Translations under genes and position numbers: made by a program | NCBI GenBank assembly: GCA_964644845.1 | Contig: CAZXXS010000078.1 | Span: 3,561-67,560, forward strand | Source: an uncultured Cytophagia bacterium | GTDB lineage: Bacteria > Zhuqueibacterota > Zhuqueibacteria > Oleimicrobiales > Geothermoviventaceae | DNA: 64,000 nucleotides | Direction of reading: 5' to 3' | Notes under the pieces: generated by a model | Told to the model about the DNA's origin: nothing | Database searches by the model: none | What the model saw: the letters and a program-made list of their open reading frames with translations, nothing else | In this document: in pieces, positions 8,569 through 38,076 of the stretch | Numbering within the stretch: the stretch's first letter is position 1 | Layout of the letters: the number at the start of each line of letters is the position of its first letter

Positions 8569-9732
8569 ATGGAACGCACGGTCCTGATCGTCGCTGGCGA
8601 AACGTCCGGCGACCTTCACGCAAGCCGTCTCGTGCGCGAAATGAAACGCCGATCTTCGGGGCTGCGCTTCGTTGGGATCGCCGGCCCCCGGATGCGCGCT
8701 GAAGGGGTTGAGGCGGTGTACAGGGTCGAAGCGCTGTCTTTTCTCGGGTTCGCAGAGGTGCTGCGACACCTTCCCTTCATTCGGCAGGTCTCGCGCCGGA
8801 TGACCCACCTCCTCGACGAACTGCAACCCGAATTGGTGATTTTGGTGGACTACCCCGGCTTCAACCTGCGCTTCGCCAGGCGAGCCAAGGAACGGGACAT
8901 CCCTGTGTTCTACTACATTGCCCCTCAGGTGTGGGCTTGGGGAAGCGGTAGAATCAAGAAGATGGTCGAACGCGTTGACCGCCTGGCGGTCATTCTTCCG
9001 TTTGAAGAGCACCTGTTCCGTCAGTACGGGCTGGATGCACACTTCGTGGGTCACCCACTTCTGGACCTGGCTCACGACGAAACCCCGCGCGAGCTGTTTT
9101 GTGCCCGAGCTGGGGTAAATCCGGACGCCCAACTGATTGGCTTGTTCCCTGGGAGCCGTCGGCAAGAGGTCCAGCGTCACTTGCCCGTGATGCTCGAGCT
9201 CGCTGAGCTAATCGGCGGCCAGCTACCCAACACCCGTTTCGTGGTCGCCCAAGCATCTGGTCTCGGTGAAGGTACGTACACAGCGTCGGTCAGATCCTGG
9301 CCCTCGGGTGTAAAACTGCTTCGGCAGGGGCACTACGCCTTGATGCGGCATGCTTCGGCCCTGGTGGTTGCCTCGGGTACAGCTACACTGGAAGCGGCCA
9401 TCTTCGCCACCCCGTTTGTCGTGGTGTACAAAGTGAATCCCACAACCTGGTTCATCGCAAGACGCCTGGTGAAACTGCCCTACATCGGATTGGTGAACGT
9501 GGTCGCCGGCCGTCGGGTGGTGCCGGAGCTCTTGCAACACGACTTCACCCCCGAGAATCTGGCGCAGACTGTACGAGCGCTGCTTAAAGATGAGGCGTTG
9601 CGAAACCAGATGCGCGCCAACCTTCTCGATGTGCGTCGACAACTCGGGCAACCCGGGGCAGCCGCTCGAGCCGCGGGTCTGGCCCTTGAACTTCTGTCCG
9701 GGGAAAAGGGCTCCGGGACCGCTGGGGTCTGA
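8569..9732 (+). CDS. lpxB: Lipid-A-disaccharide synthase
   Basis: IVAGETSGDLHA, ILVDYPGFNL, YYIAPQVWAWG, FVGHPL, LFPGSRRQEV, VASGTATLE motifs. Confidence 0.97.
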   Translation: MERTVLIVAGETSGDLHASRLVREMKRRSSGLRFVGIAGPRMRAEGVEAVYRVEALSFLGFAEVLRHLPFIRQVSRRMTHLLDELQPELVILVDYPGFNLRFARRAKERDIPVFYYIAPQVWAWGSGRIKKMVERVDRLAVILPFEEHLFRQYGLDAHFVGHPLLDLAHDETPRELFCARAGVNPDAQLIGLFPGSRRQEVQRHLPVMLELAELIGGQLPNTRFVVAQASGLGEGTYTASVRSWPSGVKLLRQGHYALMRHASALVVASGTATLEAAIFATPFVVVYKVNPTTWFIARRLVKLPYIGLVNVVAGRRVVPELLQHDFTPENLAQTVRALLKDEALRNQMRANLLDVRRQLGQPGAAARAAGLALELLSGEKGSGTAGV

Positions 9733-9807: not shown

Positions 9808-10470
9808 GTGAGTAGCGAGAGACGATCCGACCTGTTGTTCACGCTCGGAACGAAGTTCGCGTGGCTGCTTGTTCTCGGCCTTGGGAGATCGGCCCGCATT
9901 CGTTTCGTCGGCAGACAGAACTTGCTGCGTCTCCGCGAGGAGAACCGGCGTTTTATCCTGGCCGTGTGGCACGGGCGACTTCTGCTGCCAGTGTACCTGC
10001 ACCGAAATGAGGGCATTTGCGCCATGGTCAGCCTGCACCGGGACGGCGAGCTCATCGCTCAGACCATCCAGCGACTTGGCTACACAACGGTCCGCGGCAG
10101 CAGTACCCGAGGCGGGCGCGAAGCTTTCAACGAGATGGTGCGGGCTATTCGCGCTGGCGCCAACGCGGCCATCATCCCCGACGGCCCAACTGGCCCACGT
10201 CACCAGCTCAAACCGGGCGTACTTTTCATCGCCCAACAAACGGGCGCTGCCATTCTGCCCCTGACCTTCGCTTGCGACCGTTACATCACGTTCAACAGCT
10301 GGGACCGTTTCACACTGTGGAAACCGTTTGCCAAGTGCGTGGCCGTCTACGGTGACCCGTTCTACGTGCCGCGCACGTGGACCCTCCGTCAGGTACTTCG
10401 GGCCGGGAAAGAGCTGGAACAAAAGATGATTGAACAAGAAGCTTTCGCCGATGCACTTTTTCGAGAGTAA
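9808..10470 (+). CDS. DUF374 / LpxJ-like lipid A late acyltransferase
   Basis: ILAVWHGRLL, MVSLHRDGELIA, TVRGSSTRGG, IIPDGPTGP motifs; lies between lpxB and lpxK. Start GTG 9808 is my estimate. Confidence 0.85.
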   Translation: MSSERRSDLLFTLGTKFAWLLVLGLGRSARIRFVGRQNLLRLREENRRFILAVWHGRLLLPVYLHRNEGICAMVSLHRDGELIAQTIQRLGYTTVRGSSTRGGREAFNEMVRAIRAGANAAIIPDGPTGPRHQLKPGVLFIAQQTGAAILPLTFACDRYITFNSWDRFTLWKPFAKCVAVYGDPFYVPRTWTLRQVLRAGKELEQKMIEQEAFADALFRE

Positions 10471-11527
10471 GCTGCTCGGCTCGCCACTTCTGCCTTTGGC
10501 CTGGCTCTACGGAGGCGTAGTCAGAGCACACTCCGCGCTTTACAGATCCGGCATTTTGAAGCAGCAACGAGTGAACGCTCTGGTCGTTTCAGTGGGGAAC
10601 GTGACGGTGGGCGGGACCGGCAAAACTCCCTTCACCGCGTGGCTTGCACGGGAGCTCGCCAACCGTGGCGTGAACGTTGGGATCGTGAGCCGCGGCTACG
10701 GCAGAAAATCACGCGGCACCGTGGTCGTGTCGAACGGAAAGCAGATTCTTGCCGACGTGTACGAATCCGGCGACGAACCCCAGCTGCTGGCCCTCAAAAC
10801 GCCTGGTGTGCCGGTAATCGCGGACGAGGATCGATCCCGCGGCTGCCGCGAGGCTGAGCGACATTTTGACTGTACAGCCCTTCTCCTCGACGACGCCTTT
10901 CAACACCACCGGTTACACCGAGACGTTGACATCGTACTGGTCAACGCACAGGTCGGGTTTGGCAACGCCTACCTCTTGCCAGCCGGACCTTTACGCGAAC
11001 CACTCCGTGCGCTTCGACGCGCCAGCCAGATCGTCCTGACCCACTGCCACAGCCTGGAACAAGCGCCTGAACTCGTTGCGCAGATTCGACGGCGTTCCAG
11101 TGCCCCCCTGAGTTGCGCCGACTACACGTTCACCGGCCTCATTTCGCCGTCCGGCCGTCGTAAATCCGTCGACTGGCTGCGCGGCAAGCGTGTTGTCGCC
11201 GTGGCAGGCATCGCCAACCCGCACAGTTTTTTTCAAACCCTGACCCGTCTCGAAGCCGTGGTCACCCACACTGCAGCTTTCGTGGACCACCACTGGTACA
11301 CCCGACGCGACGTCGCTCGTGTAAGACGGCTGGTCCGGGAGACCCGTGCGCAGGCCGTCGTCACCACCGAGAAAGACCTGGTGAGGCTCACCCCGCTCCT
11401 CGGTGACGACACGCACGACTGGCTCGCACTCGAAGCGGAGTTGCTACCGAACCCAACTTTCAGGCTAAACTGGAACAATCTGATTGAACAGTGGCAAGAA
11501 GCCTCGCAGATCGCTTCAACCGGTTAG
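10451..11527 (+). CDS. lpxK: Tetraacyldisaccharide 4'-kinase
   Basis: SVGNVTVGGTGKTP P-loop, VSRGYGR, GDEP, LLDDAFQH, LLPAGPLREP, TTEKD motifs. Confidence 0.96.
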   Translation: MHFFESKLLGSPLLPLAWLYGGVVRAHSALYRSGILKQQRVNALVVSVGNVTVGGTGKTPFTAWLARELANRGVNVGIVSRGYGRKSRGTVVVSNGKQILADVYESGDEPQLLALKTPGVPVIADEDRSRGCREAERHFDCTALLLDDAFQHHRLHRDVDIVLVNAQVGFGNAYLLPAGPLREPLRALRRASQIVLTHCHSLEQAPELVAQIRRRSSAPLSCADYTFTGLISPSGRRKSVDWLRGKRVVAVAGIANPHSFFQTLTRLEAVVTHTAAFVDHHWYTRRDVARVRRLVRETRAQAVVTTEKDLVRLTPLLGDDTHDWLALEAELLPNPTFRLNWNNLIEQWQEASQIASTG

Positions 11528-11805: not shown

Positions 11806-14265
11806 TTACTTTGCCAGCGTAACTTTTTGAATTCGAACCTCGTCGCCGAGTTTCGCGCGCACCACGTAGACCCCCGAAGGGAGATTACGCCCAGCGTTGT
11901 CCTTGCCGTTCCAACGCAAAAGGTGCTGTCCGGGCGTGAACGTCTTGTCCGCGACCATTCGCACCAGGCGTCCTCGCACATCGAACACGGCCACCTGCAC
12001 GTTTCTGGCCTCAGGCCCAGGCACGCTGAGAGTCCACTGCACACTGGGATTGAACGGGTTTGGGTAGCCAGGACTCAGCGCAAACCGCAACGGCAGAGAG
12101 GAGAAGGCTGTGGCCACGCCCGTTGGCAGACGGCGCGCCACCATCAGCCGATCCAGGTAAATGGCGCCTCTCAATCTTCCGCGACACCGAAAATGGAAAC
12201 TGTCCACGTCCAGATTGGGTCCGTCAATCCTGCCGTTTCCGGTGATCCAGCCGTACACGGAGTCACGCTTCACGTCGAAGGTTACGAGCCGCCAGCCGAT
12301 CCAGTTAATCGGGATCCAGCGTGACACTTCGTAGCCGCTTTCGTTGTCATCCAGACAGAAGCGGAACTCGTTGCCGGAACCGTCCCCGAAAATGTAGACC
12401 TCCAGGACATCGCTGGGGCCGAACTTACCGGGCGTGGCCAGCGGATCGTGGATGTCGTCGAAGAAAACCCGGATAAAACCGCTTGTGTCAGCGAACTGGT
12501 ACTTGAGACGAGCTGCACCCTCGCCGAACAGAACGTGCTCGGTACTGATTTCAAAGCTCGTGGACTCCGGCACTGTGCCGCTCGTACTGCCGGACCACTC
12601 CGGATCGTGCCAGTTGGTCAGGTACTCGAAGTCGTCGAACGTCCTCAAGACGAAATTTTCGTCGGCTACGCGGAAACGCCACACCGTGTTCTCCTGCACT
12701 GGCAAGCCGGTTGTGTCGCGCAAGGTTGTGAAAGCACGCGCGATGAAGCGTCCACCGGGCTCAAAACCCTCGGTCGGCACAAACGCAACTGTGCTGCTGT
12801 CGCCGTAAACATCAAGCACCAGACTGCCCGCTACCGCGTGGCGCAGTACGTCGATCACGTTGAAAGCGTCCAGAGTCACCGTCGCGGAATCAAGAACCTT
12901 GTTGAACGCGGCGGAAACCACGCCGTTCGGACTCGGCATGGTGTCGCCGTCAGCAGGCCAGTTCCAGAACAGACGCGCTCGGCTGTTTTCCCGGCTTGCT
13001 GTTTCAAACACAAGGGCAAAGGGATCACCCGCCACGCCGTCTCCGTTTCCGTCAATCGCTCGCCCACCCAGATCTCGTGCCGTCGTATCCACGGTCACCT
13101 GGTAGAGCGTGCCGTACTGTAACAGCCCATCCGGTTTGAAGCGCAGCACCCTGCCCTGATTCAACCAGTAGAACGAACCGTTCACCGTTGGGGAGATCGA
13201 AAAAGCCGCTTCGACCGAGGGGCGGTTCATGGGCCGACTGAACTTGATGCGTACGTCTGACGTGACTGGCACACCCTCGGCGCCAGGCGTGGGACTGGTA
13301 GCCAGGACCAGTGGCGGCACATTGGAGGTGAGTCGAAAATCGCGAAAAGTAAAGGTGTCTTCAGGCACCACAACCACTGTGGTGTCGGGGTCGTAGTCTT
13401 TCCGCGAAGCAACCAGCGTGTACGTGCCGGGTTCCAGGCCGTCCCAAGCGTAGTAGCCATTCGAGTTGTCATCGGTCACGTACTGAAGACCAGCCTCCAA
13501 GAGGGACACAGTGGCTCCGTTCAGTGGTGTGTTGCTTTCGGTGTCGTAAAGGATTCCCGCCAGAGCTCCCGTAGGGATTGTTCCGGCGTCGTAGTACTCA
13601 AGGAACGAATGGTACAGGGCGCGCGCCTCGAAACGCAGGAAATCCGGGTTCTTGAGCTTGGCCTCCTCCACAGGGTTGTCGTGAAATGTAGCCTCGGACA
13701 ACTCGCCCGGCATGGTCAGATCATTCAGCACACCCAGATTCCAGCCGCCGTTGGGCCCGCCGTAGAATGACCAGTCGCCTCGGGCCATCCAGCCCGACGT
13801 ACGTAGCCCTTCGTAAATCGTGCGAGCCATGATTTCACTCATCACGTCGGCCTGTCCGGGCCACTGCGGCCCCAGCGAACTGGAGGAGGTGTGTAGTTCT
13901 TCGTAGAGCACCAGCGTAAAGCGGTGCTGACCGTTGTAGGCATTGTGGTGAATCGAGTGGAACCAGTCGACCCCGTTTCGGTTCGCGATGTCTTCCCGCT
14001 GGGACAGGGTGGGGTTGCTGTTGGTTCGCGTCAGGATCACCGTGTCGGCGCCCGCGCTGTTCAGATAGTCGCGCAGGTAAAGCGCCACCCGCAGGTTGAT
14101 CACATGCTCGTACACCCCCGTTGGACCGTGATTGGCATTCCCCGGGCCGTGCCCCGGGTCAAGGCAAAAACTCAGGCCCGAAAGATCTGGCTCGGTCGCC
14201 AGCGCCGTCGTCACCAGACCCGCAGTAATCAAAGCAAGAAGCGTTGTGGACTTCGTAAGGTGCAT
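11806..14265 (-). CDS. Secreted multidomain N-acetylmuramoyl-L-alanine amidase (Amidase_3, carboxypeptidase-regulatory-like domain, two SbsA/Big_5 Ig domains, CBM/CIA30-like domain, FlgD/T9SS-type CTD), paralog B
   Basis: Signal peptide; Zn ligands DPGHG...EHVIN...SIHHNA and catalytic ELSEATF; IKFSRPM Ig motif; YPNPFN...VFDVRGRLVR...WNGKDNAGRNLPSGVY CTD. Confidence 0.9.
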   Translation of the reverse strand: MHLTKSTTLLALITAGLVTTALATEPDLSGLSFCLDPGHGPGNANHGPTGVYEHVINLRVALYLRDYLNSAGADTVILTRTNSNPTLSQREDIANRNGVDWFHSIHHNAYNGQHRFTLVLYEELHTSSSSLGPQWPGQADVMSEIMARTIYEGLRTSGWMARGDWSFYGGPNGGWNLGVLNDLTMPGELSEATFHDNPVEEAKLKNPDFLRFEARALYHSFLEYYDAGTIPTGALAGILYDTESNTPLNGATVSLLEAGLQYVTDDNSNGYYAWDGLEPGTYTLVASRKDYDPDTTVVVVPEDTFTFRDFRLTSNVPPLVLATSPTPGAEGVPVTSDVRIKFSRPMNRPSVEAAFSISPTVNGSFYWLNQGRVLRFKPDGLLQYGTLYQVTVDTTARDLGGRAIDGNGDGVAGDPFALVFETASRENSRARLFWNWPADGDTMPSPNGVVSAAFNKVLDSATVTLDAFNVIDVLRHAVAGSLVLDVYGDSSTVAFVPTEGFEPGGRFIARAFTTLRDTTGLPVQENTVWRFRVADENFVLRTFDDFEYLTNWHDPEWSGSTSGTVPESTSFEISTEHVLFGEGAARLKYQFADTSGFIRVFFDDIHDPLATPGKFGPSDVLEVYIFGDGSGNEFRFCLDDNESGYEVSRWIPINWIGWRLVTFDVKRDSVYGWITGNGRIDGPNLDVDSFHFRCRGRLRGAIYLDRLMVARRLPTGVATAFSSLPLRFALSPGYPNPFNPSVQWTLSVPGPEARNVQVAVFDVRGRLVRMVADKTFTPGQHLLRWNGKDNAGRNLPSGVYVVRAKLGDEVRIQKVTLAK

Positions 14266-15881: not shown

Positions 15882-18356
15882 CTACCGAAGCAGGACCAGC
15901 CGTCCGATTTGAATCTGCCCACCAACGGTCAGACGGGCAAAGTAGATGCCGCTGGGTAGGTCCTGTCCACTTCCGTCGCGACCGTCCCAGGTGAAACGGT
16001 GCCAGCCTTCCGTCGTCTGGCCACGCCACAGGGTTGCCACCTGTTGACCAAGCAGGTTGATTACCTCGAGCACACCTTCACGTCCCACCGCTCCCGGTCC
16101 AATCCAAAACTTGATTTCCGTAGCGCTTCGAAAAGGGTTCGGCCAGTTGGGTGCCAACCGAAATTCTTTGGGTGCGCTCTCTCGCCGTTGGCGGTCGTGC
16201 CAGAGAACGGCTGTGGCGGGAGAACGAGCCAGTAGTACCAGGCGGTCGAATCCCAGTTCACCGGCAAGCTGCCCAGCTTGCTCAAGGCGCAACCCCAGGA
16301 AGAGCAAGCTGTCGGCATCGGCGCGCCCGTTGCCACCGGGGCCAGGAACAAGGTCCTCACCGACACACACTTCCAGCGATTTCCAGCCTGCCCAGTCGAT
16401 CTTGTTCGCTACGGAGTACTCCTCGCCGTCCAGATCCTGGAAGACCAAGCAGAGCACGTTGCCACTCTGGTCACCGCGCACGGCAACCGTCAGCATCTCA
16501 TCGCGTGCCACCTTTTCCGGAAGCCAGGCGGCCGGTTTCTCCCGGTTGATGAGCAACACGGAGCCAGGAACGTCGAAACGGTAGCGAAGCAATCCGTACA
16601 CGCTGTCACCGTACGCAGGTCCACGGACCAGCTCGAAGGCGGTACTGTCGACACAAATCGCAGAGCTGTCGCCCTCGACTTCCAGCGACCAGGCCAAGGT
16701 GTCGGCAGCAAAATCGTCCAGAATCACCGGGTACAACGGCCTGGACGAAGCGTAGAAATCCCACCGAAAGTAGTTCTCAAGCTGTCCCCCGCTCAGGTCG
16801 CTCAGATTCTTCATCACAGCGACTTTGTAGCCGAGACCCGCTTCCAGATCGCGAAGGGCAAACACAGCAAGTCTTCCGCCAACGAAGCCACGACTCGAGT
16901 CGATCATTTGCTCCGAGTACTGCACTGCCACGGGCACGCGGATGCGGCGGTGGCTCATCAGAAGCACGGCGTCGTCGGTCACAACGTGGGGATCCAGACG
17001 TTTGTTGAAAAGCACCCAGAGAATGTGCCCGGGCACAACGCCCGTGTCCTCACGTGCAGGCTCGAAGTCAATCACGGCGAGCGCAGCTGTGTCCAGCGGC
17101 GCTGTGTGAAAGCGGACTTCAAAATCCCCACCGGGCTGTCCGTCCGCGTCACCGTCCAACGGGTGCCCGTAGCGGTCCGTGCAAGCCTCCGTCAACAAAA
17201 GCCTGTACTCTGTGTCAAAAGCGAACCGCGTGCGGGGTGTAAAAACGACCTGGCGAGAATCATCGGACCATTTCCACCGGCCGTGAACCGGCGGCTCCAG
17301 GGCCAACCCCTGTTCGACCGAGAGCGGATCCATCGGACGGCTGAAACGCACGGCCAAGGAAGTTTGGACGGGGACATCCCTTGCTCCGTCCTGTGGGTAA
17401 ACGGTCTCCACAGTGGGTGGCGTCACGGGAACGAGACGGAAATCAAGGAACGCAAATTGGCCCCGGCTCACGCGCACAGTGTCCCGAGCTGGCTCGTGCA
17501 AGGAGTCGACTGCCAGAACTTCGTACAGGCCCGGGTCAAGATCCGCCAAAACGTACAATCCGTTGCCGAAATGATCGGTGGTCAACGTTGTGTCCAGAGG
17601 CATCACACGAACACTGGCTCCGTCCAGTGGCCGACCCGCGTCCATGTCCGAAACAATGCCTGCTAAGGCACCGGTTATCGGGGGTTCTTGGCCGTAGTAC
17701 TGCAGGAAGCTTTGCAGCAACGCCTTCGCTTCGAGCTGCAAGAATCCCTGGTTACGAAGTTTACGTTCTTCAACGGGGTGATCAAAAAACGTTGCTTCGG
17801 ACAGTTCGCCCGGCATGGTCAGATCGTTCAGCACGCCAAGGCGCGAAGGGATGCCGTAAAAGGTGTAGTCGCCGTACACGCGTGCCGACTCTGTTCGCAG
17901 AGCGTGGTAGATCTCCGCTGCCATGATGTGACTCATGACGTCGGCCTGGCCGGGCCACTGCGGCCGGTGATTTGCCAGCTCCTCGTAAAGCAACAGCGTG
18001 TAGCGCGCACTCCCGTGCTCTGCGTTGTGATGAATCGAATGAAACCAGTCGACACCGGCCCGGTTGGCGATGTCTTCGCGCTGGCTCAGCGACGGGTTCG
18101 TGTGAATTCGCGTGAGGATGACAGTGTCGGCCCCCGCTGCTCTCAGGTAGTCGCGAAGCTTGAGCGCTACTTGGAGGTTGATTGTGTGTTCGTGCAGGCC
18201 CGTTGGTCCCTGATTCTGATTTCCCGGACCATGCCCGGGATCCACGCAAATGCTGATGCCTTCCAGCGACTGGCCGAGACCTGCGGTTGCAGGTACAAAC
18301 AGTCCCATCCCGAGCAGAAAAGCAAGCGTACGTTTGCAAAAATCGGAACGCGGCAT
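15882..18356 (-). CDS. Secreted multidomain N-acetylmuramoyl-L-alanine amidase, paralog A (same architecture as 11806..14265)
   Basis: Signal peptide; DPGHG...EHTIN...SIHHNA...ELSEATF; VRFSRPM Ig motif; WPNPF...WDGRDGSGQDLPSGIY CTD. Confidence 0.9.
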   Translation of the reverse strand: MPRSDFCKRTLAFLLGMGLFVPATAGLGQSLEGISICVDPGHGPGNQNQGPTGLHEHTINLQVALKLRDYLRAAGADTVILTRIHTNPSLSQREDIANRAGVDWFHSIHHNAEHGSARYTLLLYEELANHRPQWPGQADVMSHIMAAEIYHALRTESARVYGDYTFYGIPSRLGVLNDLTMPGELSEATFFDHPVEERKLRNQGFLQLEAKALLQSFLQYYGQEPPITGALAGIVSDMDAGRPLDGASVRVMPLDTTLTTDHFGNGLYVLADLDPGLYEVLAVDSLHEPARDTVRVSRGQFAFLDFRLVPVTPPTVETVYPQDGARDVPVQTSLAVRFSRPMDPLSVEQGLALEPPVHGRWKWSDDSRQVVFTPRTRFAFDTEYRLLLTEACTDRYGHPLDGDADGQPGGDFEVRFHTAPLDTAALAVIDFEPAREDTGVVPGHILWVLFNKRLDPHVVTDDAVLLMSHRRIRVPVAVQYSEQMIDSSRGFVGGRLAVFALRDLEAGLGYKVAVMKNLSDLSGGQLENYFRWDFYASSRPLYPVILDDFAADTLAWSLEVEGDSSAICVDSTAFELVRGPAYGDSVYGLLRYRFDVPGSVLLINREKPAAWLPEKVARDEMLTVAVRGDQSGNVLCLVFQDLDGEEYSVANKIDWAGWKSLEVCVGEDLVPGPGGNGRADADSLLFLGLRLEQAGQLAGELGFDRLVLLARSPATAVLWHDRQRRESAPKEFRLAPNWPNPFRSATEIKFWIGPGAVGREGVLEVINLLGQQVATLWRGQTTEGWHRFTWDGRDGSGQDLPSGIYFARLTVGGQIQIGRLVLLR

Positions 18357-32263: not shown

Positions 32264-32319
32264 TTCCGGTCGTTTTGCCGCTTTGGGGTCTGGAAAAAGC
32301 GGGGAAGGAGGGGAAAATC

Positions 32320-33375
32320 ATGACGCAAGCAAAACAGGCACACAGACGCAGGGTGCTGTTGCCCCCTGGATACGCTGAACTACTGGAAGCGCTGAAAGCC
32401 CGGATTCGGTCGGCACAGGTTCGGGCGGCACTTTCAGTAAATCGAGAGCTTGTGCTTTTGTACTGGCAAATCGGTAAAGACATTTTGGAGCGGCAACGCC
32501 GGGAGGGTTGGGGCAGCAAGGTCATTGACCGGCTTGCGCGCGACCTGAAACGGGAATTCCCGAAGATGAGGGGGTTTTCGCCCCGCAATCTAAAGTACAT
32601 GCGCACATTCGCGGAGGTCTACCCCAATGAGGAATTTGTGCAAGAGGTACTTGCACAAATTCCGTGGTACCACAACATCACCCTCTTGGAGAAAGTAAAA
32701 GATCCACACGAGCGTCTCTGGTACGTCCAGCAAACACTGCAGAACGGTTGGAGCCGGAACGTTCTGGTTCTTCAGATTGAGAACGGTCTTTACTGGCGCC
32801 AGGGCAAAGCGGTCACTAACTTCGAAGCCACTCTGCCTCCGGCGCAGTCCGACCTGGCCCGTTCTTTGATCAAGGATCCCTACGTTTTCGACTTCCTCTC
32901 ACTGGGCCTCGAAGCGCAAGAACGCGATGTCCAGCGAGAACTTCAGAACCATCTTCGCGATTTTCTTCTGGAGCTGGGGAAAGGTTTCGCGTTTGTGGGC
33001 AGCCAGTACCGGTTAGAGGTAGGTGGAGAGGATTTCTACATCGACTTGCTCTTTTACCAGATCCGGCTGCGTTGCTACGTCGTGATTGACCTAAAGGTGG
33101 GCAAATTCAGACCCGAGTACGCAGGTAAGATGAGTTTCTACCTTTCAGCCGTAGACAACCTGCTCCGGGGGCCTGCTGATCGTCCCAGCATTGGCCTCAT
33201 TCTTTGCAGAGACAAGAATCGGGTTGTGACCGAGTACACGTTGCGAGATTTGCACAAGCCGATGGGCGTCGCGACGTACCGGGTCGGTCAGGCGTTGCCG
33301 GCGGAGCTGCAGCAAACGCTGCCCACACCAGAGGAACTGGAAGCACAATTCCGTCATCTGCCCCCACAACCCTGA
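32320..33375 (+). CDS. DUF1016 / YhcG PDDEXK nuclease domain protein
   Basis: VNRELVLLYWQIG, GWGSKVIDRLARDL, GFSPRNLKYM, KDPYVFDFL, FLLELGKGFAFVG, IDLLFY, VIDLK motifs. Confidence 0.93.
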   Translation: MTQAKQAHRRRVLLPPGYAELLEALKARIRSAQVRAALSVNRELVLLYWQIGKDILERQRREGWGSKVIDRLARDLKREFPKMRGFSPRNLKYMRTFAEVYPNEEFVQEVLAQIPWYHNITLLEKVKDPHERLWYVQQTLQNGWSRNVLVLQIENGLYWRQGKAVTNFEATLPPAQSDLARSLIKDPYVFDFLSLGLEAQERDVQRELQNHLRDFLLELGKGFAFVGSQYRLEVGGEDFYIDLLFYQIRLRCYVVIDLKVGKFRPEYAGKMSFYLSAVDNLLRGPADRPSIGLILCRDKNRVVTEYTLRDLHKPMGVATYRVGQALPAELQQTLPTPEELEAQFRHLPPQP

Positions 33376-33644
33376 ACGGGGCTGAAGCTCGCCCGGTAGA
33401 ACAAACCACTCATCCTTTCGAATTCAGGTTCAACCCGTCGAGTCTGGCCACGGAGCTGGCTCGTCTCGACAGGCCGTCGGGCTCGGCGAAGCCAATCCCC
33501 AGGCCCAAAGGGAGCAGAACAGTTCTGAACCGTGGGGCGAGGACAGGCTACGCGGCGCCGGGATTGTCGCTGCCCCCGTCCCTACCGGACGGGATTTCTC
33601 CGCGTGGTCCAACCTGCTTTTCCACGGAGGTTCCAGATCGCGCG

Positions 33645-35075
33645 CTAAAACCGGCTGTTCAATCGAAATTCGACACCCCGAAATTCGGGCACGAAAGCGC
33701 AAACGCCCCCGGAACAGAGCAAACCCGCCCGCCTTGAGCCAATCGTCAGCACAGCCTGGTGCCGTCCGTCCAGGGTAGCCGAAAAAACGAGAGCCGGAAG
33801 CGTCTTCCGCTCCTCAATCGGATTGGAACTCCGGTCGATTTGCACTGCAACAGAGTAAGAGGAGGCTTTCGCCAGATTGAACGTCACCAACTGGTTCCAG
33901 TAGTTAGGTCCATCCACCAGGCGTACACGCTGGAGCTGAACGTCCAGGAATGTGCTCCAGACTGTGGTCAGGTAGCGTTCTACTTCAATTGCCCCCGTCC
34001 GCACGCTCTCCCGTCCGAACATGTGGTCCGACGTTTCATCCAGCACAGCCCTGAGATTCCACTGTCCAAGTTGTTCGTAGCGGACGTCCAGAAACCACTC
34101 GTGGTAACGCGAATGAGGAGCGTTCGTGTGGGTAGCTCCACGATTAACAAGCACGACCACGGACCATCCCGTTGCCGGAGCAGACGTGAATTGAACCTGA
34201 AACCCACGTTCATCCCGCGGCCACAGCAAATGCGTGTGCCGATTCAGGAGAGCCACGGAGTGCGTCGGCACCAACGGCGGAGGATTGTTGAACGGGAGAT
34301 CGAAATTCAGGTAGTCTTTCCACTCGAAACTGAAAGCCCCAAGCGGCAGAGCGACCGACGCTGCCGTGTAGAAGGCGTGCGAAGCAGCACCTCTGAACCA
34401 GACTCCCACGCTCCGCCAGGCGTATTCGGACGTCACGTTGAGCAAATCACCGAGCCAGTGTGCGCGCACGGCCCCAAAATCCGCTCGATCAAAAGCAAAC
34501 CGGTCGGAAGGGTACCAGCGCATCGCCGCCGTACCAACCTTAAACCTCGGCATCAGCCAAAGGTTGACGTCCGCTCCTCTGACCACGTTCTCGCGTCGTC
34601 CGGTCTCTGGACTGAGGGGTTGCGCAGAGAAAAAACGCCCATCTGCCCGGGAACCCTGATACTCCAGCCACACGCCGTCCGCGTTCCGATCCTGGACGAA
34701 TGAACGCTCGATTCGATCCAAAACCAGCGTGCGCAGCTCGAAAGATTGGAAGAGCAAGCCTTGCCCGATCTTCTCGTAGTAATTGCCGAAACGCATCCGC
34801 AGTCCACCGTGACGGACCTCCACGAAACGCTGACTAATTTTGCCGAACGAACCCAACTGCGGGGTGGACTGGGCCATCTCCAACCGGAAACCAAAACGAA
34901 TATTCTGCGCCCAGAAATCTGTGTCCAGCCAGTCGCGCAACACATCCGAATTGTCCGCCGTCGACCTGCTGTACTCAAGGCGGTTGGCAGCAAGCACGTT
35001 GTCAAATGGCTGTGCCCGTCCCCACGTTGGGAAAACTACCAGTCCGATTCCCGCCACTGTCCACCAGAGCTTCAT
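33645..35075 (-). CDS. DUF6029-like outer-membrane beta-barrel with a C-terminal CSGGVC loop
   Basis: Signal peptide (start ATG 35075); GNYYEKIGQGLLFQSFE motif; C-terminus RRAGLLCSGGVCAFVPEFRGVEFRLNSRF with terminal Phe (BAM-type signal). Confidence 0.8.
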   Translation of the reverse strand: MKLWWTVAGIGLVVFPTWGRAQPFDNVLAANRLEYSRSTADNSDVLRDWLDTDFWAQNIRFGFRLEMAQSTPQLGSFGKISQRFVEVRHGGLRMRFGNYYEKIGQGLLFQSFELRTLVLDRIERSFVQDRNADGVWLEYQGSRADGRFFSAQPLSPETGRRENVVRGADVNLWLMPRFKVGTAAMRWYPSDRFAFDRADFGAVRAHWLGDLLNVTSEYAWRSVGVWFRGAASHAFYTAASVALPLGAFSFEWKDYLNFDLPFNNPPPLVPTHSVALLNRHTHLLWPRDERGFQVQFTSAPATGWSVVVLVNRGATHTNAPHSRYHEWFLDVRYEQLGQWNLRAVLDETSDHMFGRESVRTGAIEVERYLTTVWSTFLDVQLQRVRLVDGPNYWNQLVTFNLAKASSYSVAVQIDRSSNPIEERKTLPALVFSATLDGRHQAVLTIGSRRAGLLCSGGVCAFVPEFRGVEFRLNSRF

Positions 35076-35223
35076 CCGTCGCCGTACTCTGTGTGCGTTA
35101 TTTGGCCGCTGTCCTTTCACCTCAGGTTTCCCGTAAAGATCAACGCGTCGCTACAGAAGCACTTTTCACCTGTCAACAGCCTCGTCACCCTCATCAACAA
35201 GTCGAAAGCGAAGTCGAAGTCGT

Positions 35224-35751
35224 TCACTCTTCTGTCCGCTGCCAGTCTTTCAAGGCCCGAATCACTGCCTCCTCAAGCGTTTTTTCATCCCCAGGCGAAT
35301 AACCCACGTGCTCCCAGAGAACCTGCAAATCCTTCCCGATGAGCAGGCTCGTGGGCAACACACTCACGCGAAACAAACGCGACAATTCCTGATTTCGATC
35401 AAGGATCACGGTAAAGCGGAAACGTCGTCCGCGTACGAGCGAGCGAACACGGGAGGCTGTGGCCTCACCGTCCTCGCTGATGGCCAGCAGCGAAAAACCG
35501 TCCCCTTTGAAGCGGGCGAAAATCTCGTCCAGGTAGGGCAATTCCTTTTGACAGGGAGCGCACCAGGTGGCCCAGAAGTTCAGAAGGACGGGTCCCTTCT
35601 CTGTGAGCTCACTCAAGTGCACACGTTTCCCATCGAGGGAACGTGCTCGAAGATCAGGAACGCGTCTCAAATCCCCAGCTGCGAACCCGGGCGCCCTACC
35701 CAGGAGAAGAACAACGAGGGCCAAAACAACCGTCCGGCTAAGAGTTCGCAT
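35224..35751 (-). CDS. Exported TlpA-family thiol-disulfide oxidoreductase
   Basis: Signal peptide; LLNFWATWCAPC active site; cis-Pro VLPT. Confidence 0.93.
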   Translation of the reverse strand: MRTLSRTVVLALVVLLLGRAPGFAAGDLRRVPDLRARSLDGKRVHLSELTEKGPVLLNFWATWCAPCQKELPYLDEIFARFKGDGFSLLAISEDGEATASRVRSLVRGRRFRFTVILDRNQELSRLFRVSVLPTSLLIGKDLQVLWEHVGYSPGDEKTLEEAVIRALKDWQRTEE

Positions 35752-35963
35752 CTCAAAACCTCTTCAGCTTTGCGTGGAAACGACCGACCCAGGCTAGCAG
35801 TGCAGCCTTCTTACCGCCCTGCCGCAGCTTAAATTCGTCTCGGTAGACATACCTTCGGGAAAGCGCGACGACGTTTGCGCTCAGCCTGGGAAACCTGGTC
35901 AGACCTCGCAGGGTGGTTGGCCCCAGCACTGCCGTCCCAAAGCTGCTCCGTCAGTCCGCGCAA

Positions 35964-36785
35964 CTAACGGAACACCGCAACGCGTCTCGTCGCCACGTCT
36001 TGACCGCACCTTGCGCGGATCAAGTAGACCCCTGCAGGAACTTGGTTACCGCTTCGGTCCCTGCCATCCCAGACAACACTTCTTCCACCAGATCCCACCG
36101 GCCCCCGAAAAAGGAATCGAATTTTCCGGCCCCGGAGATCAAACACCGCCACTTCTACAGGCTCATTTCGAGAGGCCCAGATGCGCACTCGCGCGGCGCT
36201 GGATCTTCCATCCGGCACAAAGGGATTTGGGTAGACGGCACTCAGCTGGAAATTTTCGGGCGCAGCCCTGGGCGTCTCATCCTTCACACCCGTCTGCGGG
36301 AGCCAGGTCTCAATGGTCTGGATGAGCGCCGCTTTGTCGTAGCCGTAGTTGGTGTAACGAACTACCCAATCTGGACTGAGGACCACATTGTGAGGAATGT
36401 ACCCCATCCCGTACTGCCTCCACACCTTCCCCTGGGAGTCCAGTAGAATTTGGTACCTTAGACCAAACTGGTTCCTGAAGGTTTCCACCGTAGAGGCAGC
36501 CTCCTTCAGGTTGATTCCAATGACCTGAAGCCCCTTGTCTTTGTAAACCTCAAAGATGTCTTTCTGTAAGCTCGGAGCCTCCGAGCGGCAGGCAGGTCAC
36601 CACGTCGCAAAGAAATTCAGTAAAACAACTTTTCCTTCGTAGGCTTTCAGCCGCACGTCGGCACCACGAAGGTTCTTGAGAACGAAATCGCGAACGGTGT
36701 CGCCGACGGCGTACTGTGCTTTGCTTGTGACAGGCAATGACAGAAGAAGAGCCACCCCCGCTGCTACGACCCTACCTCCTCGCAT
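35964..36785 (-). CDS. Selenocysteine redoxin (TlpA/AhpC fold, UPAC active site) fused to a FlgD/T9SS-type CTD; Sec at codon 63
   Basis: ORFs 36597..36785 and 35964..36488 share a frame; bridging sequence reads LLNFFATW-TGA-PACRSEAPSLQKDIFEVYKDKGLQVIGIN; signal peptide; cis-Pro YIPH; CTD YPNPF...VFDLRGRKIR...WDGRDRSGNQVPAGVY. Confidence 0.9.
36570..36586 (-). promoter_or_regulatory. Bacterial SECIS hairpin of the Sec redoxin
   Basis: Minus strand GCTCGGA-GGC-TCCGAGC, a perfect stem starting 11 nt after the UGA at 36597-36599. Confidence 0.78.
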
Positions 36786-36896: not shown

Positions 36897-37799
36897 TCAA
36901 AGGGTTCTGCCAGCCCCCTGCACCTGAGTGCCTGCAAGCCGCTCCAGCGCCTTTACGAGCGCCTGGGTACCGAGCTCTCCCTCTCCTGCCGCCTCGCACG
37001 AGGCAAAAAGCTGGTGGACGGTGCTCACCCCCAGGAGAGGCAGGTGTTCTTGCCGAGCAGCTTCCAGGGCAAGGCGAAGATCTTTTTGCTGCAGCTTGAT
37101 CATGAAGCCGGGTGCGAAATCGCGCTGCACCATTTTGGGACCCAGATTGGCCAGTTGCCACGAGCCAGCAGCCCCACCTTTAGTCGCCTCGATCACTCTG
37201 GCCGGATCAACCCCCATCTTGCTGGCAAAGAGCAGCGCTTCCGAAACCGCAAGATTGGTTACCGCCACCAGGATCTGGTTGCAGAGCTTCGTCGTCTGCC
37301 CCATTCCGTGGTCACCCATGTAAGTGATTGATTTGCCGAGCACCTCGAAAATCGGCAGGCAGCGCTCAAACACGGAACGCTTCCCGCCCACCATGATTGC
37401 CAAAGTCCCTGCCTCTGCTCCGACGTCTCCACCGCTAACCGGCGCATCCAGCATCTCGACGCCTTTCTCGGCCAGACGGGTAGCCATCGCCTGGGTTGCG
37501 GAAGGTGAAATCGTGCTCATGTCGATCACAACCAGTCCTTTTCGGGCCCCCTCGACCACACCGTTCTCGCCGAACAACACCCGTTCCACGTCGGGCGTGT
37601 CTGGCACCATCGTGATAACCACATCCACCTGTTCGGCCACTTCTGCCGGACTTCGAGCCGGCTTCGCCCCTTCACCGGCAAGCTCTTCGACGGCCTGCCG
37701 ACTGCGGTTGTGCACCACAAGCGGGAATCCCGCCTTCAACAAATTCCGGGCCATGGGCTTGCCCATGATCCCCAGACCAATGAACCCAACCCGCTCCAT
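36897..37799 (-). CDS. garR: NAD(P)-dependent beta-hydroxyacid dehydrogenase (2-hydroxy-3-oxopropionate reductase-like)
   Basis: GFIGLGIMGKPMA, IDMSTISP, LDAPVSGG, GQTTKLCNQ, KDLRLAL motifs; AAGGAGGT RBS, start ATG 37799. Substrate not certain. Confidence 0.82.
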   Translation of the reverse strand: MERVGFIGLGIMGKPMARNLLKAGFPLVVHNRSRQAVEELAGEGAKPARSPAEVAEQVDVVITMVPDTPDVERVLFGENGVVEGARKGLVVIDMSTISPSATQAMATRLAEKGVEMLDAPVSGGDVGAEAGTLAIMVGGKRSVFERCLPIFEVLGKSITYMGDHGMGQTTKLCNQILVAVTNLAVSEALLFASKMGVDPARVIEATKGGAAGSWQLANLGPKMVQRDFAPGFMIKLQQKDLRLALEAARQEHLPLLGVSTVHQLFASCEAAGEGELGTQALVKALERLAGTQVQGAGRTL

Positions 37800-38076
37800 T
37801 TTGAACACCTCCTTGCCGAACGCTGTCCATTTCCAGCAAAACCCGGGCTTACGCCTTGAACCAGCTCACGCCGTCGGGAACCGACACGAAAGCAAAGCTC
37901 CAGCGAGATCACCGCGCGCCGCCACCCGACGAGACGCGGACGCAGTAGTCGCCGTCTCCAGCCAGAACAAACGGAGCCACGCGATTTAGCACGGTGTTTG
38001 CAAGCACTGGTCGGAATTTCTCTGCCCAAGCTCCGGGAAAAGCTTTCACTGTCCAATTTCGAAACAGGAGGTCCAG

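What the first reader, a model, noticed from the sequence alone, without database searches (positions are those of the whole stretch)
33645..36785. Candidate trans-envelope thiol/selenol relay: surface Sec-redoxin, periplasmic TlpA and an outer-membrane barrel with a CxxxxC loop
Seen: three co-oriented genes encode (i) a signal-peptide redoxin with a UPAC site and a FlgD/T9SS-type CTD, (ii) a signal-peptide TlpA with WCAPC, and (iii) a DUF6029-like barrel whose CSGGVC pair lies just before the final strand. Established: the last strand of a beta-barrel runs toward the periplasm, so the preceding loop is extracellular or folded into the lumen; TlpA proteins are reductants; no function is known to me for DUF6029. 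My recollection that Bacteroidota DUF6029 genes often neighbour TlpA and Omp28-like genes needs checking. Inference: electrons pass from periplasmic TlpA through the barrel Cys pair to a surface selenoenzyme, an outer-membrane analogue of DsbD that reduces extracellular disulfides, peroxides or surface proteins.
Basis: partly seen in the sequence, partly recalled or inferred. Interest (0 to 1): 0.85.

Follow-up and report, generated by a model that had tools for sequence, protein, structure and literature searches.

The report
Conserved outer-membrane thiol/selenol redox module
Three neighbouring genes (a surface-targeted selenocysteine redoxin, a periplasmic TlpA-type reductase and a 24-stranded outer-membrane barrel with an invariant cysteine pair) form an undescribed module kept together in at least eight bacterial phyla; it may carry reducing power across the outer membrane, but that function is untested.

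Summary
On the minus strand lie three genes. The first (35964-36785) is a signal-peptide redoxin with an in-frame TGA giving W-U-P-A-C and a T9SS-type C-terminal domain. The second (35224-35751) is a signal-peptide TlpA/ResA-like protein with WCAPC. The third (33645-35120) is a DUF6029 barrel with CSGGVC 17 residues from its C-terminus.

The TGA is a real selenocysteine codon. 53 of 70 second-redoxin genes in other genomes carry TGA where the rest carry Cys. 96% of TGA contexts have a hairpin 10-12 nt downstream, with many different stem sequences, against about 28% of Cys controls.

The Cys pair is present in every full-length DUF6029 sequence examined (337 aligned). In 80 species-representative loci, 76 have a TlpA-type gene within 700 bp and 70 have a second redoxin within 2 kb. 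One lineage fuses TlpA to the barrel in a single polypeptide.

Electron flow from TlpA through the barrel to the surface redoxin remains inference. AlphaFold does not resolve the Cys loop, and no inner-membrane electron donor is linked. I rate the relay about 0.45. The main rival is a transport barrel whose Cys pair is merely maintained by the two redoxins.

The parts
35964..36785 (-). Gene for the second (surface-targeted) redoxin, 273 aa including one selenocysteine: signal peptide, ResA/TlpA-like thioredoxin fold with W-U-P-A-C, and a C-terminal Ig-like sorting domain
   Evidence: Read-through translation. Pfam and NCBIfam hits. Nearest solved structures by sequence are ResA, DsbE and CcmG. 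Orthologues flank DUF6029 in 70 of 80 loci.
36597..36599 (-). In-frame TGA = selenocysteine codon, the first residue of the UxxC active site
   Evidence: It aligns with TGA in 53 loci and with Cys codons in 17 loci. The reading frame and conservation continue downstream.
36570..36586 (-). SECIS-like hairpin GCUCGGA-GGC-UCCGAGC, starting 11 nt after the UGA
   Evidence: Fold. A hairpin of at least 5 bp at the same distance is found in 53 of 55 unique TGA contexts, with about two dozen different stem sequences and G-containing loops, against 26-30% of Cys controls.
35967..36236 (-). C-terminal sorting domain (FlgD_ig / T9SS type A Por_Secre_tail) of the redoxin
   Evidence: The same domain ends two other secreted proteins in the window. 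Orthologues carry PF18962 Por_Secre_tail.
35224..35751 (-). Gene for the TlpA/ResA-like periplasmic thiol-disulfide oxidoreductase, 175 aa, with a signal peptide (…GFA|AG) and WCAPC (Cys codons 35560-35562 and 35551-35553)
   Evidence: A TlpA-type gene lies within 700 bp of DUF6029 in 76 of 80 loci. Its stop overlaps the DUF6029 start in 6 of 6 annotated loci. It is fused to DUF6029 in P0085/L089.
33645..35120 (-). Gene for the DUF6029 outer-membrane beta-barrel. This is the longest ORF; the likely start is ATG 35075, giving 476 aa with signal peptide MKLWWTVAGIGLVVFPTWGRA|QPF. 24 transmembrane strands are predicted.
   Evidence: PF19494. AlphaFold2 pLDDT 87.6, pTM 0.83, 24 strands. The best structural matches are the 24-strand usher pores FimD/PapC, TM about 0.5.
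33699..33716 (-). Invariant Cys pair C469-S-G-G-V-C474 (motif RRxGxxCxxGxC) in the loop before the last strand
   Evidence: C469, G472 and C474 are 100% conserved in 337 unique sequences. CxxxxC lies 17-20 residues from the C-terminus in 155 of 159 family sequences (exactly 17 in 148); the 4 exceptions lack the conserved C-terminal end and look truncated. No Sec substitution was seen.
34230..34331 (-). Most conserved loop of the barrel (extracellular loop 7 and flanking strand ends): EWKDYxxF…NNPPxLxxxHSxxLLNRHxH
   Evidence: It is predicted as a long loop with a short helix between strands 13 and 14.

Best explanation
The three genes encode one envelope redox module. TlpA (signal peptide, no anchor) works at the periplasmic face of the DUF6029 barrel. 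It is made in step with the barrel through overlapping genes, and in one lineage it is fused to the barrel's periplasmic N-terminus. The barrel carries an invariant CxxGxC pair in its last extracellular loop, beside a cluster of conserved lumen-facing residues at the outer mouth. The second redoxin is sent to the cell surface, by a T9SS C-terminal domain here or as a lipoprotein in some lineages, and uses selenocysteine as its attacking residue in most non-Bacteroidota lineages. The most likely function is delivery of reducing equivalents across the outer membrane: TlpA (reduced elsewhere by a CcdA/DsbD-type protein) -> barrel Cys pair -> surface seleno-redoxin -> extracellular or surface disulfides, or oxidised surface proteins. 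TlpA may be docked inside the wide lumen, as MtrA sits in MtrB or LptE in LptD. Shown here: the genes, the Sec codon and its hairpin, the targeting signals, the invariance of the Cys pair, the cross-phylum synteny and the fusion. Inferred: the direction of electron flow, the participation of the barrel Cys pair, the docking and the final substrate.
For: The module is conserved. 76 of 80 loci have a TlpA-type gene within 700 bp and 70 of 80 have a second redoxin within 2 kb. These are the only universally conserved neighbours. The neighbourhood survives changes of gene order and strand: redoxin-TlpA-barrel here and in KSB1, TlpA-barrel-redoxin in Bacteroidota and Balneolota, and opposite-strand flanking in Latescibacterota. 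TlpA and DUF6029 overlap in 6 of 6 annotated loci. A TlpA-DUF6029 fusion lacks an internal signal peptide. The Cys pair is invariant in 337 sequences. It lies in the last extracellular loop of a 24-strand barrel. The second redoxin is always given a surface or outer-membrane address: a CTD, a lipoprotein signal followed by CSKDDD in a Bacteroidales locus, or PEGA domains. Both redoxins are closest to the reductases ResA, TlpA, DsbE and CcmG. Sec at the attacking position is supported by hairpin statistics. There are two precedents: a surface T9SS thioredoxin with no known reductant, HBP35 (PMC2907840), and a barrel-sheathed trans-outer-membrane electron conduit with the same gene order, MtrCAB (PMC7198977).
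Against: There is no direct evidence of electron transfer or of any protein-protein contact. AlphaFold2 does not resolve the Cys loop (pLDDT <50 at SGGV), so reachability from the periplasm is unknown. By topology the pair is on the outside, where a periplasmic TlpA could reach it only through the lumen or before membrane insertion. The barrel Cys are never replaced by Sec, even in Sec-using lineages. No CcdA/DsbD gene is linked. A few loci have a non-redoxin CTD protein in the second position (L054, L061), and one has TlpA only (L058). Intergenic gaps of 148 and 212 nt in the window leave co-transcription untested.
Confidence: 0.45

Rival explanations
1. DUF6029 is a transport channel of unknown substrate, and its extracellular Cys pair is a structural or gating disulfide. 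The two redoxins are dedicated maintenance factors. TlpA handles the pair while the unfolded barrel crosses the periplasm, and the surface redoxin resets it after oxidation or reduction outside. No electrons flow through the membrane.
For: The pair sits in an extracellular loop that a folded-state periplasmic TlpA cannot obviously reach. It is never replaced by Sec. Many conserved charged lumen residues and the NNPP…LNRH loop suggest a binding or transport site independent of redox. Dedicated oxidoreductases encoded next to their single client are known (ResA, StoA; names).
Against: It needs two separate redoxins on two sides for one disulfide. A surface redoxin would still need a source of electrons. 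The TlpA-barrel fusion keeps TlpA tethered to the mature barrel, which is unnecessary for a one-off folding step.
Confidence: 0.3
2. The module is a surface antioxidant system. The seleno-redoxin acts as a peroxidase or as the reductant of oxidised surface proteins (for example methionine sulfoxide repair), and the barrel only lets a small reductant or the oxidant through. The Cys pair is incidental to catalysis.
For: There is AhpC/TSA family similarity. Sec resists over-oxidation (established chemistry). An MsrA gene lies about 4 kb away in 22 Latescibacterota loci.
Against: The active site is a thioredoxin-type WUxxC, and the closest structures are ResA and DsbE, not peroxiredoxins. The MsrA linkage is lineage-specific. 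This reading does not explain the absolute invariance of the barrel Cys pair.
Confidence: 0.1
3. The barrel is a metal or metalloid uptake channel. Its two Cys, with conserved His, bind a thiophilic ion and must be kept reduced. This parallels TlpA keeping the CxxxC site of the copper chaperone ScoI reduced.
For: The TlpA-ScoI precedent (established knowledge; TlpA structures appear). There are conserved His residues in loop 7 (H287 83%, H297 89%).
Against: No metal transport, chaperone or regulator gene is conserved nearby. The His residues are not universal. CxxGxC is not a known metal motif.
Confidence: 0.08
4. DUF6029 is a polysaccharide export porin, as suggested from HHpred similarity to the Wzi barrel, and the redoxins are unrelated neighbours.
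For: PMC9603273 reports DUF6029-like similarity for Wzi-barrel homologues near OPX genes. Alginate exporter AlgE appears among the structural matches.
Against: No OPX, Wza, Wzx or glycosyltransferase genes are conserved near any of the 85 loci. The redoxins are the only conserved neighbours. The structural matches are generic barrels with TM 0.3-0.5.
Confidence: 0.04

Closest known systems
DsbD/CcdA -> TlpA/ResA/CcmG extracytoplasmic reducing pathways
   Same: Both redoxins are signal-peptide, thioredoxin-fold proteins with CxxC/UxxC sites, closest in sequence to ResA, TlpA, DsbE and CcmG. The proposed logic is the same: a membrane protein with a Cys pair hands electrons from one compartment to a redoxin in the next.
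   Different: The membrane component is an outer-membrane beta-barrel with no similarity to DsbD or CcdA (alpha-helical, inner membrane). The pair is CxxxxC in a loop. The acceptor is on the cell surface and is a selenoprotein. NCBIfam scores are far below the TlpA and ResA cut-offs (58.8 against 230; 95.5 against 170).
MtrCAB porin-cytochrome complex (Shewanella)
   Same: Three components: a surface redox protein, a periplasmic redox protein and a large barrel (26 strands there, 24 here). The gene order surface-periplasmic-barrel matches the window. In MtrCAB the periplasmic partner is sheathed in the barrel and touches the surface partner (PMC7198977).
   Different: There are no haem motifs (no CxxCH in any of the three proteins) and no homology. 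The chemistry would be thiol/selenol-disulfide exchange, which needs direct contact. The complex is not demonstrated.
HBP35 of Porphyromonas gingivalis
   Same: A thioredoxin-motif protein with a T9SS C-terminal domain. It is located on the cell surface and is active in the insulin reduction assay (PMC2907840).
   Different: HBP35 uses Cys, also binds haemin, and has no described barrel or TlpA partner. Homology to the window protein was not tested.
[quoted passage not shown]
   Same: The same Pfam domain and the same UxxC motif (PMC9312934).
   Different: That family is defined by domain and motif only. The surface sorting domain and the fixed partnership with TlpA and DUF6029 are not part of its description.
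LptD-LptE plug-and-barrel
   Same: A large barrel (26 strands) that houses a protein of about 20 kDa in its lumen. LptD is among the structural matches. It is offered as a model for how TlpA could reach the outer mouth.
   Different: There is no sequence relation. LptE is a lipoprotein, and the function is LPS insertion.

Membership tests
DUF6029 (PF19494) | Match to the Pfam profile above the gathering score | tested here: met
   70.7 bits against a cut-off of 27. All homologues carry PF19494.
DUF6029 (PF19494) | C-terminal RRxGxxCxxGxC motif about 17 residues before the terminal aromatic residue (a feature found here, not in the Pfam text) | tested here: met
   CSGGVC at residues 469-474. 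The two Cys and the Gly are 100% conserved in 337 sequences.
TlpA / ResA equivalogs (NCBIfam NF047696, NF002854) | Score above the curated whole-protein cut-off | tested here: not met
   TlpA model 58.8 bits against 230; ResA model 95.5 against 170. It is a member of the broad AhpC-TSA/Redoxin/TlpA-like superfamily only.
TlpA-like extracytoplasmic reductase (broad sense) | Signal peptide plus a thioredoxin fold with WCxPC | tested here: met
   N-terminal signal peptide and WCAPC. Pfam hits are above their cut-offs. ResA is the best PDB match at 1.2e-24.
Bacterial selenoprotein | In-frame UGA aligned with Cys in homologues, with conservation continuing downstream | tested here: met
   53 loci have TGA and 17 have Cys at the same column.
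Bacterial selenoprotein | SECIS-type hairpin shortly after the UGA, with a G in the apical loop | tested here: met
   The hairpin is at 36570-36586. 96% of TGA contexts have one against 26-30% of Cys controls, with varied stems. No Rfam family reached threshold.
Bacterial selenoprotein | selA/selB/selD and tRNA-Sec present in the genome | not testable with these tools
   None are in the 64-kb window. The only tRNA is Ser-CGA. The rest of the genome is not available.
T9SS cargo (type A CTD) | C-terminal sorting domain matching TIGR04183 / PF18962 | tested here: met
   TIGR04183 scores 23.9 against 23 (marginal) and FlgD_ig 29.1 against 27. Orthologues have clear PF18962 hits.
T9SS cargo (type A CTD) | T9SS machinery (SprA, PorV, PorU and others) in the genome | not testable with these tools
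   None is in the window. There is indirect support: two other proteins in the window end in the same domain.
DsbD/CcdA | Homology to the DsbD transmembrane domain, with Cys in helical hairpins | tested here: not met
   There is no DsbD or CcdA Pfam/NCBIfam hit for the barrel, and it is all-beta. The resemblance is functional analogy only.
Porin-cytochrome (MtrCAB-type) | Multihaem cytochromes (CxxCH) and an MtrB/PioB barrel | tested here: not met
   No CxxCH motif occurs in any of the three proteins. There is no MtrB_PioB hit.
T9SS-associated barrels (PorP/SprF, PorV, PorQ) | Match to the corresponding profiles | tested here: not met
   Only PF19494 is found at E<=0.01, and there are no NCBIfam hits for the barrel.

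The most novel reading that the evidence does not exclude
This is the first thiol/selenol-based electron conduit across a bacterial outer membrane: a 'porin-redoxin' complex. A periplasmic TlpA docks in a 24-strand barrel and, through the barrel's invariant Cys pair, keeps a cell-surface seleno-redoxin reduced. That would give FCB-group bacteria catalytic disulfide-reducing power outside the cell.
Probability: 0.4. Interest if true: 0.92.

Novelty: new variant of a known kind. Interest (0 to 1): 0.8.

Why it matters
No mechanism is known for supplying reducing equivalents to thiol oxidoreductases on the outer face of the outer membrane, although such proteins exist (HBP35). If this module does that job, it extends the DsbD/TlpA logic by one membrane. 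It would also be a non-haem counterpart of porin-cytochrome conduits.

It would assign a role to DUF6029, a family of more than 1,600 sequence clusters. It would also explain why so many environmental FCB-group lineages spend selenocysteine on a secreted redoxin.

The question can be tested directly. Cultured organisms carry the all-Cys version as a compact operon: Maribellus comscasis, Reichenbachiella agarivorans and Gracilimonas mengyeensis.

Tried and rejected
- The Rfam scan of the window found only a tRNA and no SECIS family.
- Folding the single downstream region alone was not significant (z = -1.08), so I switched to a comparative test with Cys controls.
- A first attempt to count module completeness undercounted TlpA genes because it used only one query's hits. 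It was redone correctly.
- The promoter/terminator scan was at background level and says nothing about co-transcription.
- Two AlphaFold2 runs fix the barrel (24 strands) but not the Cys loop.
- Foldseek returned only generic large barrels.
- I looked for Sec substitutions at the barrel Cys positions as a sign of catalysis and found none.
- I looked for a conserved CcdA/DsbD, Omp28 or polysaccharide-export neighbour. None is general.
- Chance adjacency is rejected.
- Pseudogene or sequencing error for the TGA is rejected, because the same codon recurs in 53 loci.
- Literature searches linking T9SS, TlpA and selenoproteins found nothing relevant.
Full report
**What is in the window.** Three co-oriented minus-strand genes lie between a 3-hydroxyisobutyrate-dehydrogenase-like gene (36897-37808) and a plus-strand YhcG/DUF1016 nuclease gene (32275-33375).

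- Gene 1 (35964-36785) is split by the ORF finder into 62 aa and 174 aa pieces. The pieces are in one frame and are separated by a single TGA at 36597-36599. Reading through gives a 273-aa protein with the active site FFATW-U-PAC-R. It has a cleavable signal peptide. It hits Pfam AhpC-TSA (1.7e-25) and Redoxin, and has a C-terminal Ig-like domain that passes both FlgD_ig (29.1 bits against 27) and, marginally, the T9SS type A sorting-domain model TIGR04183 (23.9 against 23).
- Gene 2 (35224-35751) encodes a 175-aa signal-peptide protein with WCAPC. Its closest solved relatives by sequence are ResA, DsbE and TlpA.
- Gene 3 (33645-35120, probable start 35075) is a DUF6029 protein (70.7 bits against 27). 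CSGGVC lies 17 residues from a C-terminal ...LNSRF.

The nearest relatives are Calditrichota MAGs (82-83% identity), so the window probably comes from that phylum.

**The TGA is selenocysteine.** I located the homologous active-site codon in every redoxin gene flanking a DUF6029 gene in 85 fetched loci.

- 53 of 70 second redoxins in the 80 GTDB-representative loci have TGA at exactly this position, and 17 have Cys.
- Downstream of the TGA, 53 of 55 unique contexts (96%) form a hairpin of at least 5 bp, which in 47 of them begins 10-12 nt after the codon. The apical loops contain G (CGUGC, CGGGU, AGG, GGC, GGUC).
- The stems have about two dozen different sequences, for example GCUCGGA/UCCGAGC here, CUCUCG/CGAGAG, GGGCGG/CCGUCC, UCGCGG/CCGCGA and GCUGU/ACAGC. 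Pairing is therefore kept while sequence changes.
- The same 30-nt region after the Cys codon of Cys-type genes forms such a hairpin in 26-30% of cases. This control includes the TlpA genes of the same loci.
- Mean folding energy is -9.0 kcal/mol for TGA contexts against -3.5 for those TlpA controls (p = 5e-11).

In the window the hairpin is at 36570-36586. On its own it was not significant, and Rfam has no matching family; the comparative evidence carries the argument. [quoted passage not shown] The Sec machinery could not be checked, because the window holds only tRNA-Ser.

**The barrel and its Cys pair.**

- With an 81-sequence alignment, AlphaFold2 gives pLDDT 87.6 and pTM 0.83, with 24 transmembrane strands. 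The first, shallower run agreed.
- Foldseek finds only generic large barrels. The best matches are the 24-strand usher pores FimD and PapC (TM about 0.5), followed by LptD.
- Short turns (2-5 residues) alternate with longer loops, and both termini must be periplasmic. This places the Cys-containing segment (ORF numbering 464-479) in the twelfth and last extracellular loop. The residue pattern after C474 (acidic and basic residues on both faces) does not fit a lipid-embedded strand.
- The family is large: 1,635 clusters at 50% identity with E <= 1e-3.
- In 159 retrieved sequences, CxxxxC lies 17-20 residues from the C-terminus in 155 (exactly 17 in 148). The other four lack the conserved C-terminal end and look truncated.
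- In 337 unique full-length sequences, C469, G472 and C474 are 100% conserved.
- The other near-universal residues are E232, E266, K268, Y270, N293, R294, E304, Q308, E341, R463 and E484. They alternate along strands 11-16 and 23-24, near the extracellular ends of those strands, and they flank loop 7, which carries the motif NNPPxL...H...LLNRH. The conserved surface is therefore the outer mouth of the lumen, next to the Cys loop.
- AlphaFold does not settle the loop itself (pLDDT <50 at S-G-G-V). I cannot say whether the pair is a disulfide, whether it points into the lumen, or how far down it can reach.
- In no locus is either Cys replaced by Sec.

- Annotated contigs for KSB1 and Zixibacteria homologues show [redoxin with an extra domain]-[TlpA-like]-[DUF6029].
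- A scan of one genome per species gave 80 loci from Latescibacterota (40), Bacteroidota (8), Calditrichota (7), Gemmatimonadota (7), KSB1 (5), Zixibacteria (3), and single loci from Ignavibacteria, Eisenbacteria, Balneolaceae, Rhodothermales and others.
- A TlpA-type gene (x[WYS]CxPC, usually TWCKPC) lies within 700 bp of DUF6029 in 76 loci, and within 1 kb in 78. A second redoxin lies within 2 kb in 70 loci. Most exceptions are contig ends.
- Clustering all flanking ORFs shows the redoxins are the only neighbours conserved across lineages. No CcdA/DsbD, polysaccharide-export or metal genes recur.
- The neighbourhood survives rearrangement. The order is redoxin-TlpA-barrel here and in KSB1, and TlpA-barrel-redoxin in Bacteroidota, Balneolota and some Calditrichota. 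In Latescibacterota both redoxin genes lie on the opposite strand, on either side of the barrel gene.
- In all six annotated loci outside the window's own clade, the TlpA stop overlaps the DUF6029 start.
- Three cultured organisms carry the compact Cys-only operon TlpA-DUF6029-redoxin/Por_Secre_tail: Maribellus comscasis, Reichenbachiella agarivorans and Gracilimonas mengyeensis.

**A natural fusion.** One family representative (P0085, 655 aa; three database members on at least two contigs) is a TlpA domain (FWASWCGPC, E = 5e-26 to the window TlpA). A linker of about 25 residues joins it to the first strand of a DUF6029 barrel, with no internal signal peptide. It is one continuous ORF in contig L089. 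The N-terminus of an outer-membrane barrel is periplasmic. The fusion therefore places TlpA at the periplasmic face and argues that it works attached to the mature barrel, not only during folding. The gene upstream of the fusion encodes a CTD protein with an N-terminal CxxC segment and weak, sub-threshold Omp28 and DUF1223 similarity.

**Where the second redoxin goes.**

- In the window and most loci it ends in the CTD. Two other large secreted proteins in the window (Amidase_3 + Big_5, at 11806-14265 and 15882-18356) end in the same domain, so this organism uses the domain as a general sorting signal. The genes lpxB and lpxK show that it is a diderm.
- In a Bacteroidales locus (L082) the second redoxin is instead a lipoprotein beginning C-S-K-D-D-D. 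From my own knowledge, this matches the Bacteroidota lipoprotein surface-export signal.
- In Zixibacteria and Ignavibacteria it is a lipoprotein with PEGA domains.
- Some Calditrichia and Balneolaceae have both a lipoprotein redoxin and a CTD redoxin.
- Different addresses with the same destination suggest that the outer location is the point. A few loci have a non-redoxin CTD protein in this position (L054, L061).

**Mechanism.** The shown facts fit a three-layer arrangement: a periplasmic reductase, an outer-membrane protein with an essential Cys pair at its outer mouth, and a surface redoxin.

I add a concrete suggestion for how the geometric problem could be solved. A 24-strand barrel has a lumen of roughly 30-35 A by my geometric estimate. 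That is comparable to barrels that house a protein: LptE in LptD, or MtrA in the 26-strand MtrB (PMC7198977). TlpA could insert from below and meet the Cys loop at the top. MtrCAB has the same gene order as the window (surface partner, periplasmic partner, barrel) and is the closest system in how it works. There is no homology, and there are no haem motifs.

HBP35 of P. gingivalis shows that a T9SS-exported thioredoxin can sit on the surface and be active in vitro (PMC2907840). How such proteins are recycled is not addressed there.

The main rival (about 0.3) is that the barrel is a transporter with a structural or gating disulfide serviced by two dedicated redoxins. Antioxidant (0.1), metal-site (0.08) and polysaccharide-porin (0.04; suggested in PMC9603273) readings are less well supported.

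**Novelty and verdict.** Each part belongs to a known kind: a TlpA-like reductase, a UxxC Prx-like selenoprotein, a T9SS cargo domain and a Pfam DUF. The fixed partnership, the invariant barrel Cys pair and the fusion appear undescribed. DUF6029 occurs in only two papers of the library (two versions of one work), in another context. Searches joining T9SS, TlpA and selenoproteins found nothing relevant.

I classify it as a new variant of the extracytoplasmic thiol-reducing pathways. There is a substantial chance (about 0.4) that it is a categorically new trans-outer-membrane thiol conduit.

Noticed in passing
L089:2215-4182 (proteins P0085, P0277, P0278): A natural single-polypeptide fusion of a TlpA domain to the N-terminus of a DUF6029 barrel, with no internal signal peptide. 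It is preceded by a 683-aa CTD protein with an N-terminal CxxC segment and weak Omp28/DUF1223 similarity.
   Followed up: partly
window 11806-14265 and 15882-18356 (minus strand): Two paralogous proteins of about 820 aa (Amidase_3 + CarboxypepD_reg + Big_5) end in the same FlgD_ig/Por_Secre_tail domain as the seleno-redoxin. A PD40 beta-propeller gene lies between them.
   Followed up: partly
L002-L005, L023, L049 (Zixibacteria, Ignavibacteria): An extended version of the module: a Fer4_5 membrane iron-sulfur protein, a small ORF, an Omp28-like protein and an unknown 196-aa protein lie upstream of a PEGA-domain lipoprotein redoxin, TlpA and DUF6029. The iron-sulfur protein could be a lineage-specific electron input.
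   Followed up: partly
L047:8556-10002 and L060:8526-9971: Two tandem Sec-containing redoxin genes (HN-U-PTC-R and HN-U-DLC-R) lie downstream of DUF6029 in some Latescibacterota, each with its own hairpin after the TGA.
   Followed up: no
L054:8935-9960 and L061 (minus strand): In these Latescibacterota loci the position of the second redoxin is taken by a CTD protein with dockerin/EF-hand-like repeats and no detectable redoxin domain.
   Followed up: partly
22 Latescibacterota loci, e.g. L014:11119-11916: A methionine sulfoxide reductase A gene (GCFWC motif) and an aldo-keto reductase gene recur 4-5.5 kb from DUF6029, in this phylum only.
   Followed up: no
window 32275-33375 (plus strand): A YhcG/DUF1016 PDDEXK nuclease gene lies immediately downstream of the module on the opposite strand. 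It marks the end of the conserved block.
   Followed up: no
window 8569-9732 and 10430-11527: The lipid A genes lpxB and lpxK show that the organism has an LPS outer membrane.
   Followed up: no
window 33580-33600 (minus strand, just after the DUF6029 stop): A GC-rich hairpin CCCGTCC-GGTA-GGGACGGG with no T-run lies about 45-65 nt after the stop codon (stop at 33645-33647). It may be a terminator of a type the simple scan does not recognise.
   Followed up: no
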